Virus record (IMG/VR): IMGVR_UViG_3300031418_000007 | DNA from: a virus | Lineage: Duplodnaviria; Caudoviricetes | Strand: one strand, 5' to 3' | DNA length: 64,000 bases | In this document: positions 2,330-52,070 of the stretch, one piece after another | Numbering within the stretch: position 1 is the stretch's first letter | Layout: each line of letters opens with the position of its first letter | Program-made: the position numbers and the translations under genes | Notes under the pieces: generated by a model | Database searches by the model: none | Told to the model about the DNA's origin: nothing | Seen by the model: the letters and a program-made list of their open reading frames with translations, nothing else

Positions 2330-4048
2330 CTATCGAGAAATAGCCGAGAGGGCTTCTTGCCTTGCATTCTCGCCAACCTTCGACCGTCCAGTATACGTCA
2401 GGCTGGCCAGGGTAAAAAACGTCGACATGATGTTGATTGGGGTGTAGCCCAGATCATTAAACGCGTCAGACTCACCAGCACAGCTTTCGCACGCATAGTT
2501 AGCCAGACCCACAAAGGTTTTGCTCATGAACGGATAGTGCTGAATAACCGAGGACACCAGGTTCTTCGCCATCTCATCGTTTTCCATGATGATGTTCACA
2601 ATACCCTGGTTAAACTGAGCAGGATCTTGTTCACGGCGACGAATGATCATCGGTTCGCCATCAGTACCCGGTTCAGGCATGACGCGGTATTCGGCGATGT
2701 AGTGCAGGTAATCGGTACCGACCAGGCCGTTGAGGAACTCTTCACGATCCTGAAGGTACTGCTCTTCGGTCATGGACTCTTCGCGGATTTTGTCCAGCTG
2801 CTTACGCACCAGCTCAGAGAAGAACTGTTCAGCTTCAAAACTTTCGGTCAGAGACGGCACACCCAGGATAAAGCAGGCGCTGCGGTTTTCGTTCCACACC
2901 GGTTCGATTTCGTGTTTGAAGTCAGTGTCAGCAATAAACTGCAAAGACTCTTCACGCGAATACTTGCGGGAGAAGTTCATCATGTTGGCGTAAGCCGCTG
3001 ATTCTTCTGCCGTGTCCAACCATTTACGGTCAATGGTCAGCAGGCTTGGATCGATGATGTCAGCACGTGACCAGTTACAGCTTTTGTCAGCCAGACACTT
3101 CATGTGGAAGTTCACGCCGTTAGGGTAGAACAGTTCCAGCAGAGAACAGGCCATGACGTTGATATCGGTGATGCGGATCACGTCAGCCAGCTCATCAAAG
3201 TCAGAGGTGTCTTTGACGCTGCACAACATCATCTTGTCACGGATAAACTGCCACACCACGCGAATAGCCGCGATGTTGCTTAATGCCGGCAGGTTCTGCG
3301 ACACCGTACGAACGTGACCACGCACAACACGCGCAATGTTGTCAATCAACTCACCGGCTTCTAAACGGTTAGGTTTAGCATAGCGGATAGCGATAAACGA
3401 GTTACGCAAAAGCAGATCGTAGTTGTACGGATCTTTACTGACGCTCAGTGATGAGCGACGCATGTATTCGCTTAACGAGAACGTTCCGCGATTACGACCT
3501 GGGACCAAACCGTTTAAGTCACCGGTTGCGATTTCACTGGTACGCTGCATGACGTTGGTCAGACCAGGCTCACGCACTACCGGGTACTGCATCATCAGAG
3601 GATCTGCCAGGTTGGAGATAAAGGCATAGATAGTGCGCTGACGATCGTTGGCTTCTTTCAAGCCGAGGTCCGGCATGTTTTCCGCGACGTACTCTTCCCA
3701 GGCGGTGATCTGTGCCTGGACCTGACTCATGCTGATGCCTTCTTTATCACGCTGTTTGTCGGTCATGCGGGCAAACTGCTGTGCGGCAACATAGTTCTGC
3801 CACATTTCCTGCTCTTGACTTACACGAGCATAGGACTCTTTGTTCAAACCAATGAACCCGTTGAGATAGGTCAGGCTTTTATCATTGATGTCGAACTGAC
3901 CCTGAACCTGAGAGCGCGGCGGCAACGCGTCGTGTGCGACGGTATTTTCAGCGGTCTGTACGGTTTGATGAGTGACCACGGTTTTCTTAACCGGGACAGG
4001 CTGTTGGGTTTCCATTGCAGCCATCTGCTGTTCTAAGTTGTCAGACAT
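2330..4048 (-). CDS. Large hypothetical protein (572 aa), probably jumbo-phage core or virion
   Basis: Long ORF with typical codon usage; start overlaps the upstream stop. Confidence 0.75.
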   Translation of the reverse strand: MSDNLEQQMAAMETQQPVPVKKTVVTHQTVQTAENTVAHDALPPRSQVQGQFDINDKSLTYLNGFIGLNKESYARVSQEQEMWQNYVAAQQFARMTDKQRDKEGISMSQVQAQITAWEEYVAENMPDLGLKEANDRQRTIYAFISNLADPLMMQYPVVREPGLTNVMQRTSEIATGDLNGLVPGRNRGTFSLSEYMRRSSLSVSKDPYNYDLLLRNSFIAIRYAKPNRLEAGELIDNIARVVRGHVRTVSQNLPALSNIAAIRVVWQFIRDKMMLCSVKDTSDFDELADVIRITDINVMACSLLELFYPNGVNFHMKCLADKSCNWSRADIIDPSLLTIDRKWLDTAEESAAYANMMNFSRKYSREESLQFIADTDFKHEIEPVWNENRSACFILGVPSLTESFEAEQFFSELVRKQLDKIREESMTEEQYLQDREEFLNGLVGTDYLHYIAEYRVMPEPGTDGEPMIIRRREQDPAQFNQGIVNIIMENDEMAKNLVSSVIQHYPFMSKTFVGLANYACESCAGESDAFNDLGYTPINIMSTFFTLASLTYTGRSKVGENARQEALSAISR

Positions 4049-40085: not shown

Positions 40086-41066
40086 TTAGAAGTCAAAACC
40101 GTCTTCGCTGGCATTAGAAGAGAGATCTTCCTGCTTAACGAAAGTTGATTTGGCTTTCTGTTGAGCGCTTTCCAGCTCATCCAGTTCGCCCTTCAACTTC
40201 TGTACTGCTTCGCCGTGATCCAGCATCATTACAATGATGTTAGCATTAGGTGGATTGTTATCAGGATTGATAACGCCGGTTGCGCGATAAGCTGCATCTT
40301 TAAACAGTGGGCGCGCATTGTCGCGATGATCAAAGATAGAGCAGAAGGATACCGGCGGGTTACCGTTGTAGCTGGTTGCAGCATCATCAGTCAGGAAGTT
40401 GATCTCAGACAGCGCCGGCGGCAGGCCAGTGACTTTAGCGTATTGCAGGCTGTTGGCGATATCTTCAAAGTCCAGCTCTTCGTTCGACTCAGTCAGGAAC
40501 AGACTGGCGTAGTTGATGTTGAGGATCGCTTCGTCGTTGATTTCACGACGAGTACGCTCATCATTGACGATGCTGATGTGCGGGATGACTTTACCCAGGA
40601 AACGCTCTTGTACCTGGTTAGAGATCGACAGCATGATTTTCGCAGAGTTGCGACGCTCAACCAGAGAGGTGTTGTCTTTAACAAACACACCCACGGTTGG
40701 AATGTTGCGACTCAGCAGATAACGCATAACTGCAAAACCTTGACCCGAACCTGTACCGCCAGCGACCGACATGATCACAATACAGAACTTACCTGGCTTG
40801 TGAACTTTAAAAGACTCAGCGATAAACGGCGCGTGGTTCTCAAAGTTCAGCGTAACATCTTTACCAGAGCCCTGTGCTTTTTGACCCGGGTTCTTTGCCG
40901 AGTTCATGTGCAGCACTTCAAACTTTCCATCAGAACTGTTGCTTGCAGAACTGTCAAAGCCGAGGTACTTCGCTTCTTTCAGTACACGGGTGCCTGGGGC
41001 ATCAATGACATCTTTCATGATGTTGATACCAGTACCACCACAACCAATGACCATAAGTTCAGACAT
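40086..41066 (-). CDS. phuZ: PhuZ tubulin (phage spindle)
   Basis: VIGCGGTGINI and AGGTGSG tubulin/FtsZ GTPase motifs; acidic-aromatic C-tail (EDGFDF); 326 aa. Confidence 0.93.
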   Translation of the reverse strand: MSELMVIGCGGTGINIMKDVIDAPGTRVLKEAKYLGFDSSASNSSDGKFEVLHMNSAKNPGQKAQGSGKDVTLNFENHAPFIAESFKVHKPGKFCIVIMSVAGGTGSGQGFAVMRYLLSRNIPTVGVFVKDNTSLVERRNSAKIMLSISNQVQERFLGKVIPHISIVNDERTRREINDEAILNINYASLFLTESNEELDFEDIANSLQYAKVTGLPPALSEINFLTDDAATSYNGNPPVSFCSIFDHRDNARPLFKDAAYRATGVINPDNNPPNANIIVMMLDHGEAVQKLKGELDELESAQQKAKSTFVKQEDLSSNASEDGFDF

Positions 41067-41122
41067 GACACTACTCCGTTGTTAATAAAACTTTAAGTTA
41101 CGATTATTGTACTACATTCACA

Positions 41123-41146
41123 CAGGTAATATAGAACTGAAAAAAT
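41123..41146 (-). promoter_or_regulatory. Early-type promoter for phuZ
   Basis: Minus strand TTTTTCAGTTCTATATTACCTG. Confidence 0.7.
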
Positions 41147-41176
41147 AACGGTGATTTAAAGATTATTTAAAAAGAC

Positions 41177-41220
41177 AAAAAAATAAGGATTGTTGCCTGA
41201 CACGCCTTTGGCGGTCAGGC
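41177..41220 (-). terminator. Terminator ending the putative ncRNA-1 unit
   Basis: Minus strand GCCTGAC-CGCC-AAA-GGCG-T-GTCAGGC followed by a U-run. Confidence 0.65.
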
Positions 41221-41775
41221 TTAAATGTTATCCCCAGTCAGCACATCGATCGGAAACCCCAGATGGCAAGTTGCCACGCTATTCGGGATCTTCGCTTCGG
41301 TGCGAATGGCTGCGTCATAACTTCCGAGCCTGGGGAGTGCTCATGGGAAGGTTCTTTTACAATGTAACCTCTGATATAAGCTATCACGAGATTGAACACT
41401 GTTTGTTCCGTCAACTGGAATTTACCCAGTAAGGGTAAATAAGCTATGAAAAACATACTTACCCTTAATGAGTTGAGAAACATTGTGGAACATCCGTATT
41501 CCACTCTGTTATTACTTTGAGAGGTATAATGAACTTTCAATGAAGGTCCTGAGGTCGCCCTAACAGTTAGGGAGAACGTTCTCAACAGCAGCGCACAGCT
41601 GCAACGTTCTTCTACTCTTCCGCATATGCGATTCGCTCTCATTAGGCAATCGCACCCCCAGCTCAGGGATCGCTTAGTAGACCGGATCTGGCGGCGTGCC
41701 GCTCAGCAGTAGCCGCGCATTACCGAACCTCAGTTCGTCAAGGCGACCACAGGACTTCCATCAAAATCATGTGTT
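41221..41775 (-). ncRNA. Candidate large structured non-coding RNA 1 (about 550 nt)
   Basis: Bracketed by a promoter motif and a terminator; many nested helices; no convincing ORF. Confidence 0.5.
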
Positions 41776-41785
41776 CATTACACTC

Positions 41786-41808
41786 TAATAATACAGAGTT
41801 GAAATAAT
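41786..41808 (-). promoter_or_regulatory. Early-type promoter with no downstream protein gene
   Basis: Minus strand TATTTCAACTCTGTATTATTAG, close to the chmA promoter TATTTCAAGTCTACATTACTAA. Confidence 0.6.
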
Positions 41809-41819
41809 TTAGCGTGGTC

Positions 41820-41856
41820 AAAAACAGAGTGGGATAAAATCCGTATTATCCCATTC
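41820..41856 (-). terminator. Terminator ending the putative ncRNA-2 unit
   Basis: Minus strand GAATGGGATAA...TTATCCCACTC followed by TGTTTTT. Confidence 0.65.
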
Positions 41857-42270
41857 GATTTGGGGTAGTGAAATTTACACGCTGAAGCACCGCGGGACAG
41901 TGGTTCGGTAAGTATTTGGATTACTTAACGTACAGCTGTCCAACAATATCTTGGTAATGCAGTTAAAAATAATAGTGTCCGCTAGAGCCATGGGCGTGAA
42001 AGTTCCCATTCTCATATTCTGTCCTTGTTATTCCCACACGGACGATGGGCAAGGAATTTTCACTTCGGGAGAAGTAAAAGGGTTTGCGACAGCAGAGTAA
42101 CCTCATCAGTGACTGTGCGATAATATCGGCTAATAATCAAAAACTGTGAATCGTTAATCAACCGTCGCAAATAACAATAACCCGAACCCACTCAGAGAGC
42201 GTCAAGGGGTAGCCCGTACAAATTGCAGTGGCTTTAGCCAGTACGTGCTTTATCTTGAAATGAAGTGTTC
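41857..42270 (-). ncRNA. Candidate structured non-coding RNA 2 (about 410 nt)
   Basis: No ORF of 60 aa or more on either strand; several 6-10 bp helices and end-to-end pairing. Confidence 0.42.
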
Positions 42271-42285
42271 TAGAAATACATATTA

Positions 42286-42537
42286 TTACTCAGCTGGCTG
42301 TGCAGTGGCTTTCTGTACCAGCGGAACGAGATCAGTGTAACCACCGATGTGCGCGCCATCTACGAAGATCTGAGGAACAGTATCGATGGGTTTACCCACA
42401 ACTGCTTGCAGATCAGCTTTGGTCATGCCGGCTTCAACGAAGTCAATATAGTTGTGTTCAACACCTTTGGCTTGACACAGTTCTTTTGCACGCTTGCAGA
42501 AAGCGCAACCTTCTTTGCCGTAGATAGTGACTTTCAT
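42286..42537 (-). CDS. grx: Glutaredoxin
   Basis: CAFC active site, TVPQIFVDG and IGGYTDL motifs; 83 aa. Confidence 0.92.
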   Translation of the reverse strand: MKVTIYGKEGCAFCKRAKELCQAKGVEHNYIDFVEAGMTKADLQAVVGKPIDTVPQIFVDGAHIGGYTDLVPLVQKATAQPAE

Positions 42538-52049: not shown

Positions 52050-52070
52050 CTTAGATAATATAGATTTAAG
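52050..52070 (-). promoter_or_regulatory. Early-type promoter motif
   Basis: Minus strand CTTAAATCTATATTATCTAAG. Confidence 0.6.

What the first reader, a model, noticed from the sequence alone, without database searches (positions are those of the whole stretch)
41221..41775. Candidate new large structured ncRNA with its own early promoter, upstream of phuZ
Seen on the minus strand: a promoter nearly matching the chmA promoter (41786-41808), then about 550 nt, then a hairpin and U-run (41177-41220). The 5' domain is closed by an 18-bp helix (41740-41758 with 41542-41561). It encloses CGAAC/GTTCG (41724-41737), TGCGATT/AATCGCA (41627-41654) and AGAACGTT/AACGTTCT with GCAGC/GCTGC (41573-41610). 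The 3' domain has GTGGAA/TTCCAC (41485-41504), AAGGGTAA/TTACCCTT (41431-41466), TTCGC/GCGAA (41291-41306), TGGCA/TGCCA (41264-41276) and TCGGAA/TTCCGA. A CCCCAG segment (41330-41335) has two alternative partners (41231-41237 and 41257-41262), suggesting a pseudoknot or switch. The only overlapping ORFs look non-protein-like. I do not recognise it as tmRNA, RNase P, 6S, SRP or an intron. Inference: an undescribed phage RNA, such as a scaffold or nanocage-type RNA (compare ROOL/GOLLD near phage tRNAs), an RNAP or ribosome decoy, or an anti-defence RNA.
Basis: partly seen in the sequence, partly recalled or inferred. Interest (0 to 1): 0.8.

Follow-up and report, generated by a model that had tools for sequence, protein, structure and literature searches.

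The report
Folded RNA leader plus small gene
Upstream of the tubulin gene phuZ of an uncultured nucleus-forming giant phage lies one short transcription unit whose first ~255 bases are a new, conserved, strongly folded RNA and whose second half is not RNA structure but a conserved 72-residue protein gene with a locked ribosome-binding site.

Summary
The sequence features are mostly real, but the reading as one 550-nt non-coding RNA is only half right.

**5' half (41527-41780, minus strand).** This is a genuine structured RNA.
- Folding z-score is about -6, the strongest in the window.
- It is closed by a ~31-bp helix in which 13 of 39 checked pairs show compensatory changes across three diverged lineages.
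- G-U pairs far outnumber A-C mismatches, so selection acts on this RNA strand.
- It has no Rfam match.
- A covariance model built from it finds diverged copies at the same place in four metagenomic relatives.

**3' half.** This is a real protein gene (41238-41456, 72 aa).
- The frame is kept in eight lineages down to about 45% identity.
- All indels are in frame, third codon positions change most, and dN/dS is about 0.25.
- Its predicted helices are not kept in distant relatives.
- The exceptions are a hairpin that buries the Shine-Dalgarno site and AUG, kept in all lineages, and a terminator-like hairpin just upstream.

**Relatives.** In one lineage a canonical terminator separates the RNA domain from the gene.

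**Most likely reading.** A phage-promoter-driven structured leader or attenuator RNA that also yields a discrete 5'UTR-derived RNA and gates a small basic protein.

Function is unknown. This scan reached the same reading earlier on another genome.

The parts
41777..41808 (-). Phage promoter motif. Core TCTGTATTAT lies at 41788-41797, followed by GAGTGTAAT. The predicted transcription start is about 41780-41787.
   Evidence: The core motif YCTRYATTAY has 8 hits in the window against 1.5 expected. All are on the minus strand and upstream of genes. The same motif precedes the homologous RNA in L029, L033, L072 and L073. The start position is inferred from giant-phage early promoters, whose AT-rich motif lies about 10 bp upstream of the start (PMC11512511).
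41527..41780 (-). Structured 5' RNA domain of 254 nt. An outer helix and a ~31-bp closing helix (41736-41766 with 41535-41565) enclose a junction with three branches.
   Evidence: z = -5.6 to -6.1, and -10 for the 300-nt window at 41501, the extreme of 42 windows. Close relatives show compensatory pairs. In the closing helix 13 of 39 pairs changed on both sides, with 4-7 G-U pairs per sequence; A-C mismatches are 0-1, except 4 in L029. Model R1 finds L029, L033, L072 and L073. No Rfam hit.
41475..41504 (-). Terminator-like hairpin GTGGAATACGGATGTTCCAC with a U-rich tail: a candidate attenuator between the RNA domain and the small gene.
   Evidence: Flagged as terminator-like. The same hairpin is present in L029 and L032, with a U-G to U-A change. 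At the same place L033, L072 and L073 carry a canonical GC-stem plus U7 terminator whose stems covary.
41431..41466 (-). Hairpin that buries the Shine-Dalgarno site (AAGGG, 41462-41466). The start codon (41454-41456) lies at the loop-proximal end of the 5' arm, paired in the predicted fold. The 3' arm TTTACCCTT is codons 6-9. An alternative partner, GGGTAAA, lies at 41421-41427.
   Evidence: Predicted in every lineage (win, L002, L030, L029, L032, L033, L034, L037), while the L038 fold takes the alternative pairing. L038 shows a G-C to A-U compensatory change that is synonymous in the protein.
41238..41456 (-). Small protein gene of 72 aa plus stop. The product is basic (net charge +2 to +7 across the family) with a moderately hydrophobic N-terminal half.
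   Evidence: dN/dS is 0.24-0.36 in this frame, against 0.5-0.8 and above 2 in the other two. Homologues of 71-73 aa at 45-57% identity sit at the same place before phuZ. Pairwise differences at codon positions 1/2/3 are 0.33/0.28/0.47, and all indels are in frame. No Pfam, PHROG or PDB relative. AlphaFold2 pLDDT is 57.
41178..41220 (-). Terminal hairpin (41195-41220) and U-run (41178-41185) that end the unit. The phuZ promoter follows at 41126-41135.
   Evidence: The hairpin is kept in relatives, with one G-C to C-G change in L002.

Best explanation
This is one short phage transcription unit on the minus strand.

**Layout**
- A promoter of the phage's own recurrent type, probably the early virion-RNA-polymerase type, starts an RNA at about 41780-41787.
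- The first ~255 nt fold into a closed domain: a long, nearly perfect helix that joins the 5' end to the 3' side, capped by a three-branched junction.
- A terminator-like hairpin follows. Then comes a hairpin that locks the ribosome-binding site and start codon, then a 72-codon gene for a small basic protein, then the final terminator.

**Proposed mechanism**
- The folded domain is a cis-acting leader.
- Many transcripts stop, or are cut in the long helix, after the domain. This gives a discrete stable RNA of about 300 nt.
- Transcripts that read through carry the small gene. Its translation is shut by default by the ribosome-binding-site hairpin, which can swap its 3' arm to a downstream GGGUAAA.
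- The small protein is therefore gated twice.

**Shown:** the fold and its covariation, the coding nature of the 3' half, the promoter motif, the conserved hairpins, and the terminator in relatives.

**Inferred:** the transcription start, timing, attenuation, the switch, and any signal that operates it.
For: **Promoter**
- The motif has 8 hits against 1.5 expected, all upstream of genes.
- This leader is 332 nt long. The other instances have leaders of 36-108 nt, counting the 112-aa ORF behind the motif at 52055.

**5' domain**
- z is about -6.
- In close relatives 98% of cells are paired, against about 40% in slid controls, and 6 pairs are compensatory.
- In the closing helix 13 of 39 pairs are compensatory across win, L029 and L033.
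- In the L033/L072/L073 trio 12 of 73 pairs are compensatory, including interior helices.
- Model R1 hits: L029 at 25.7 bits, L033 at 27.2, L072 at 21.0 and L073 at 18.4.

**Attenuator**
- The hairpin is flagged as terminator-like.
- L033, L072 and L073 have a canonical terminator between the domain and the ORF, with no promoter motif after it.

**Translation lock**
- The ribosome-binding-site hairpin is kept in all lineages, with a compensatory change.

**Coding gene**
-.

**Precedent**
- In giant phage 201phi2-1, 8 of 11 small RNAs arise by premature termination in 5' UTRs (PMC11512511).

**Weak hint of transcription**
- In a metatranscriptome run one contig spans domain and ORF (41238-41716) at depth 284, against 681 on phuZ and 101 upstream. 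A DNA run is flat at about 1500.
Against: - No transcript ends are mapped. The contig data cannot show strand, start or end, and DNA may be present in the RNA library.
- The window's own attenuator has only a short U-tract (AAUGUUUCUC), so termination there is uncertain.
- L034/L037 have a helix-closed domain that R1 does not recognise and no terminator before the ORF. L038 has only a hairpin of about 100 nt. The large domain is therefore not indispensable for the gene.
- The interior varies from about 150 to 305 nt between lineages, with few invariant bases. That is unlike a small-molecule aptamer.
- No conserved antiterminator pairing was found.
Confidence: 0.6

Rival explanations
1. The 5' domain is chiefly a trans-acting RNA. 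Its job could be as a decoy, sponge or scaffold, or as the RNA part of a particle formed with the co-encoded small basic protein. The small gene merely rides on read-through transcripts.
For: - In L033, L072 and L073 the domain is bracketed by a promoter and a canonical terminator, like a stand-alone RNA gene.
- Sequence blocks are kept across lineages: UUGAUGG/UUCAUUGA with fixed G-U pairs at the base of the helix, and a GCGGAAG-type motif seen by eye. These look like binding sites.
- The RNA and the basic protein (net charge +2 to +7) are always adjacent.
Against: - No target or partner is known.
- The domain is replaced or reduced in L034 and L038 while the protein stays.
- It always sits directly before the same gene, as a cis element would.
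- It is single-copy in the relatives' contigs.
Confidence: 0.22
2. The long 5' helix is only a processing or stability element. It could be an RNase III site or a protective 5' stem-loop, as in T7 early transcripts or the lambda N leader. On this view the branched cap is lineage-specific filler.
For: - The helix is about 31 bp with two mismatches. That length matches what I know of RNase III substrates (own knowledge, not tested here).
- The cap varies greatly in size, and L038 has a plain hairpin.
Against: Interior helices covary within lineages. The three-branch plan and interior motifs are shared between win, L029 and L033, enough for a model to align them.
Confidence: 0.12
3. One reading: one ~550-nt non-coding RNA with two structured domains and no protein product.
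For: The whole stretch folds with z = -8.0. The 3' half alone gives z of about -4.7.
Against: - The frame is conserved in eight lineages, with in-frame indels, a third-position excess and dN/dS of about 0.25.
- The 3'-half helices are not kept beyond background in distant lineages.
- A z of -4.7 is matched by other windows in this genome.
Confidence: 0.03
4. A type I toxin-antitoxin-like module. A small toxic peptide is kept silent by a structured leader and an antisense RNA.
For: A small ORF with a hydrophobic N-terminus, a long structured leader and a buried ribosome-binding site resemble hok, tisB and zorO mRNAs (own knowledge).
Against: - Hydropathy reaches the usual membrane-helix level (about 1.6, own knowledge) in only 1 of 6 family members.
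- No promoter-motif hit lies on the plus strand.
- The gene is syntenic and conserved in a lytic phage clade.
Confidence: 0.03

Closest known systems
5'UTR-derived small RNAs of giant phages 201phi2-1 and phiKZ (ONT-cappable-seq; PMC11512511)
   Same: Both occur in nucleus-forming giant phages. A phage promoter is followed by a structured RNA and a terminator ahead of the coding sequence, and position is conserved relative to a homologous gene.
   Different: The known RNAs are under 250 nt and lie before a tail-protein gene. They have no reported long closing helix or multi-branch junction. They were not compared with this RNA here, and no transcript data exist for this one.
Transcription-attenuating or translation-gating mRNA leaders (riboswitch-type architecture)
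   Same: A conserved folded 5' domain is followed by a terminator hairpin and by a hairpin that sequesters the Shine-Dalgarno site, with an alternative partner.
   Different: No ligand or antiterminator was found. The interior is variable in size and sequence, the closing helix is unusually long and nearly perfect, and there is no Rfam family.
RNase III-processed leader hairpins of phage early transcripts (T7 R sites, lambda N leader)
   Same: A long double-stranded stem lies at the 5' end of an early phage mRNA, upstream of a translation start (own knowledge of those systems).
   Different: This stem carries a 170-305-nt branched cap with its own covariation. Cleavage was not tested.
Large structured RNAs near phage tRNAs (ROOL, GOLLD)
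   Same: It is a phage-borne structured RNA close to tRNA genes.
   Different: There is no match to either Rfam model even at E up to 10. This RNA is much smaller (255 nt) and is attached to a coding sequence.

Membership tests
Any Rfam 15 family (including 6S, tmRNA, RNase P, SRP, group I/II introns, ROOL, GOLLD, self-cleaving ribozymes) | Covariance-model score at or above the family's gathering threshold | tested here: not met
   Only two tRNAs pass in the whole window. At E up to 10 on 40900-42400 there are two chance-level hits, on the other strand.
5'UTR-derived small RNA by premature termination (giant phages) | A promoter and transcription start followed by a terminator upstream of the coding sequence | tested here: inconclusive
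   This is met by sequence in relatives L033, L072 and L073, which have a canonical terminator. In the window there is only a terminator-like hairpin with a short U-tract.
5'UTR-derived small RNA by premature termination (giant phages) | Enrichment of short primary transcripts that end at that site | not testable with these tools
   Only assembled contigs of a metatranscriptome were available.
Riboswitch-type regulatory leader | A conserved sensor fold supported by covariation | tested here: met
Riboswitch-type regulatory leader | An expression platform with mutually exclusive pairings that overlap a terminator or ribosome-binding site | tested here: inconclusive
   The Shine-Dalgarno hairpin and an alternative downstream partner are conserved. 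No antiterminator was found.
Riboswitch-type regulatory leader | A specific ligand | not testable with these tools
   None.
6S-type RNA-polymerase-binding RNA | A rod of about 180 nt with a large central bubble that mimics an open promoter | tested here: not met
   No Rfam 6S hit. The fold is a long stem capped by a three-branch junction.
Type I toxin-antitoxin | A small membrane-helix toxin | tested here: not met
   The maximum 19-residue hydropathy is 0.7-1.4 in 5 of 6 members.
Type I toxin-antitoxin | An antisense RNA gene | tested here: not met
   No promoter-motif hit on the plus strand.
Protein-coding gene (small ORF 41238-41456) | A frame conserved with in-frame indels, a third-position excess and dN/dS below 1 | tested here: met
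   Eight lineages were compared.
DNA-level inverted repeat or miniature transposable element | Multiple copies, and strand-symmetric mismatches | tested here: not met
   It is single-copy in the window and in contigs of 96 and 126 kb. The helix has 4-7 G-U pairs per sequence; A-C mismatches are 0-1, except 4 in L029.

The most novel reading that the evidence does not exclude
The folded 5' domain and the small basic protein encoded right behind it form a dedicated ribonucleoprotein of nucleus-forming phages. Alternatively, the RNA alone is a trans-acting decoy or scaffold. Either way it would act early in infection on host or phage machinery, for example RNA export, RNA-targeting defence or the polymerase. 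It would not merely regulate its own gene.
Probability: 0.15. Interest if true: 0.8.

Novelty: new variant of a known kind. Interest (0 to 1): 0.55.

Why it matters
Nucleus-forming giant phages separate transcription from translation, and almost nothing is known about their RNA-level regulation. This locus gives a concrete, testable case:
- a new RNA fold with strong comparative support;
- it is fixed next to the spindle gene phuZ in a whole uncultured clade;
- it is coupled to a terminator, a locked ribosome-binding site and a conserved orphan small protein.

It also shows that a stretch taken for a large non-coding RNA hides a real small gene that annotation would miss or mis-size (134 aa against 72 aa).

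Tried and rejected
- **DNA search of the phage collection:** blastn of the interval found no match.
- **Protein search of the phage collection:** tblastn of the small protein found only chance hits.
- **Exact-pattern scans of IMG/VR with two RNA segments:** only the four close relatives came back.
- **Scan with a C-terminal codon pattern:** 35 loci, none with the small ORF family beyond the known ones.
- **Distant PhuZ-based loci (PhuZ 23-34% identical) and Shewanella phage FishSpeaker:** no R1 hit.
- **Origin of replication:** no GC-skew turn at window scale.
- **Small protein:** no Pfam, PHROG, PDB or Atlas lead. The AlphaFold2 model is low-confidence (pLDDT 57), so it was not used for a fold search.
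- **MAFFT alignment of diverged 5' domains:** it misaligned the 3' arm, so the arms were aligned separately.
- **R1 alignment with both strands included (A6):** not used for pair counts.
- **Antisense promoter idea:** the plus-strand look-alike does not fit the core motif.
- **Long leader behind the motif at 52055:** it holds its own 112-aa ORF.
- **Sequencing runs:** only contigs could be laid. Parts without cover and contig ends carry no weight.

Full report
**Setting**

The stretch lies on the minus strand. It sits in a 1.2-kb gap between a glutaredoxin gene (42286-42537), preceded by tRNA-Asn and tRNA-Ser, and a 326-aa tubulin PhuZ gene (40086-41066). PhuZ is at best 40% identical to that of Shewanella phage FishSpeaker and 30-36% identical to other nucleus-forming giant phages. 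No DNA match exists in the phage collection.

Relatives came from several sources:
- Four IMG/VR contigs are close relatives: PhuZ is 87-90% identical, and the interval is 85-88% identical in DNA.
- Through the small protein described below I found further relatives in public assemblies: L029, L030-L038, L072 and L073.
- Where the flanks are long enough, these show the same gene order: glutaredoxin or tRNAs, gap, small ORF, phuZ.

Mostly yes.

- *Folding.* The 604-nt stretch folds with z = -8.0. Split in two, the 5' half gives -5.6 to -6.1 and the 3' half -4.6 to -4.8. In 42 control windows of 300 nt the mean is -1.4 (sd about 2). The window at 41501-41800 is the extreme at -10. Values near -4.7 also occur elsewhere. 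So the 5' half is exceptional and the 3' half is not.
- *Promoter.* The core YCTRYATTAY occurs 8 times against 1.5 expected. Every hit is on the minus strand in front of a gene, phuZ included. In giant phages the AT-rich early motif lies about 10 bp upstream of the start (PMC11512511; PMC8244752). That places the start near 41780-41787. This step is inferred.
- *Leader length.* The leader to the first conserved start codon is 332 nt. The other motif instances have leaders of 36-108 nt.

**The 5' half is a conserved RNA fold**

- *Close relatives.* 98.3% of cells are paired, against about 40% when partners are slid. Six pairs are compensatory, for example AGAACGUU/AACGUUCU changing to AGAACACU/GGUGUUCU, and GCAGC/GCUGC changing to GCGGC/GCCGC.
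- *Frame-breaking indels.* One- and two-base indels break the 134-aa frame upstream of codon 63 in every relative.
- *Diverged lineages.* The domain is 390 nt in L029 and about 230 nt in L033, with z of -5.8 and -5.5. It is closed by the same helix.
- *Closing helix.* With the arms aligned separately, 13 of 39 pairs changed on both sides while staying paired. Each sequence has 4-7 G-U pairs; A-C mismatches are 0-1, except 4 in L029. The pairing is therefore selected in RNA of this strand, not in DNA.
- *Covariance model.* A model built from the close relatives (R1) aligns L029 (25.7 bits), L033 (27.2), L072 (21.0) and L073 (18.4) over its full length, with the same three-branch plan.
- *Interior helices.* Within the L033/L072/L073 lineage, 12 of 73 pairs are compensatory, interior helices included.
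- *Copy number and limits.* The domain is single-copy in the window and in the relatives' 96- and 126-kb contigs, and it is absent from FishSpeaker. L034/L037 have a helix-closed domain that R1 does not recognise (z = -4.85), and L038 has only a hairpin of about 100 nt.
- *Database status.* Rfam 15 has nothing.

**The 3' half is a protein gene**

- The last 72 codons of the 134-aa ORF stay open in all relatives.
- In that frame dN/dS is 0.24-0.36. In the other two frames it is 0.5-0.8 and above 2 (the ORF frame is the one printed there as frame 2).
- Searches found proteins of 71-73 aa at 45-57% identity.
- The codon alignment of eight lineages shows only in-frame indels. Pairwise differences at codon positions 1/2/3 are 0.33/0.28/0.47, with runs of purely synonymous changes, for example K-F-Q-L between the window and L029.
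- The window's predicted helices inside the ORF body are kept in 47-69% of cells in distant lineages, against 35-45% for slid controls. In L034 and L038 they are at background level.
- The CCCCAG 'switch' is Ser-Pro-Gly codons and is not conserved.
- The protein is basic (net charge +2 to +7). Its N-terminal half is moderately hydrophobic and reaches membrane-helix hydropathy in only one of six members. It has no known relatives and only a low-confidence two-helix model.

**Two RNA elements between domain and gene are conserved**

1. *A hairpin that pairs the Shine-Dalgarno region (AAGGGUAAG) with codons 6-9 (UUUACCCUU).* The AUG lies at the loop-proximal end of its 5' arm, paired in the predicted fold. 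The hairpin is predicted in all lineages but one: in L038 the predicted fold takes the alternative pairing, although the complementary sequences are kept. L038 keeps the pairing through a G-C to A-U change that is synonymous (CCC to CCU). A second copy of GG(G)UAAA or GGGUGAA just downstream (Gly11, Lys/Glu12) could take the same 3' arm.
2. *The hairpin at 41485-41504 with a U-rich tail.* It is scored as terminator-like and is shared with L029 and L032. At the same position L033, L072 and L073 carry textbook terminators (GC stem, U7) whose stems differ by compensatory changes. No promoter motif lies between terminator and ORF. In those phages the domain must be made as a discrete RNA, and the gene can be reached only by read-through.

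**Mechanism proposed (confidence about 0.6)**

A phage promoter drives a structured leader. Termination, or cutting in the long helix, after the leader gives a stable RNA of about 300 nt. Read-through gives the mRNA of the small protein, whose translation start is closed by default. This matches the class of 5'UTR-derived small RNAs seen by transcript mapping in 201phi2-1 and phiKZ (8 of 11 small RNAs; PMC11512511).

The only expression data are contigs of a seed metatranscriptome. A relative's contig spans 41238-41716 at depth 284, against 681 on phuZ and 101 upstream, while a DNA run is flat. This is a weak hint.

Rivals are:
- a chiefly trans-acting RNA, possibly partnered with the small protein;
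- a mere RNase III or stability stem;
- a type I toxin-like module;
- the original all-non-coding reading, which the comparative data contradict.

**Novelty**

The RNA fold and the protein family are both undescribed in the libraries searched. The way the unit is built resembles known leader and attenuator designs. My analysis was done before I saw it, and it agrees.

Noticed in passing
window 41826-42285 (minus strand): A second ORF-free stretch lies between the glutaredoxin stop and a terminator (41830-41853), with z = -2.8. Blocks such as GTACGTTAAGTAATCCAAATACTTACCGAACC and the CCCATCGTCCGTGTGGGAATAACAAGG region recur in distant relatives (L029, L033, L034). L037 and L038 carry a different element in part of it. 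This may be another conserved RNA.
   Followed up: partly
L003 about 2734-3096 (equivalent to window ~41970): One close relative has a 364-bp insertion inside the upstream ORF-free stretch. By eye it appears to carry a small ORF with its own ribosome-binding site. The interval therefore seems to be a hot spot for insertions.
   Followed up: no
window 41786-41808 versus 41495-41527: The inverted repeat that forms the closing helix continues into the promoter. The RNA just after the domain (GTAATAACAGAG) is complementary to the promoter core CTCTGTATTAT. This is not seen in L033. Its meaning is unknown: chance, duplication, or pairing in read-through transcripts.
   Followed up: partly
window 11431, 17934, 22872, 33749, 41126, 41788, 48037, 52055 (all minus strand): The recurrent promoter core YCTRYATTAY, usually followed by G(G/T)T(A/G), lies upstream of genes. 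It is useful for mapping this phage's probable early units.
   Followed up: yes
L034 3060-3300 and L038 3050-3400: By eye, distant relatives appear to carry extra tRNA-like sequences (T-arm-like motifs such as GGTTCGAATCC) and small inserted ORFs between glutaredoxin and the small gene. These were not run through a tRNA finder. The content of this interval differs from lineage to lineage.
   Followed up: no
window 41238-41642 (minus strand): A gene caller would probably report the 134-aa ORF in this genome, although only its last 72 codons are conserved. In L001/L004 and in L030/L031 the open frame starts 9 codons upstream (81 aa).
   Followed up: yes
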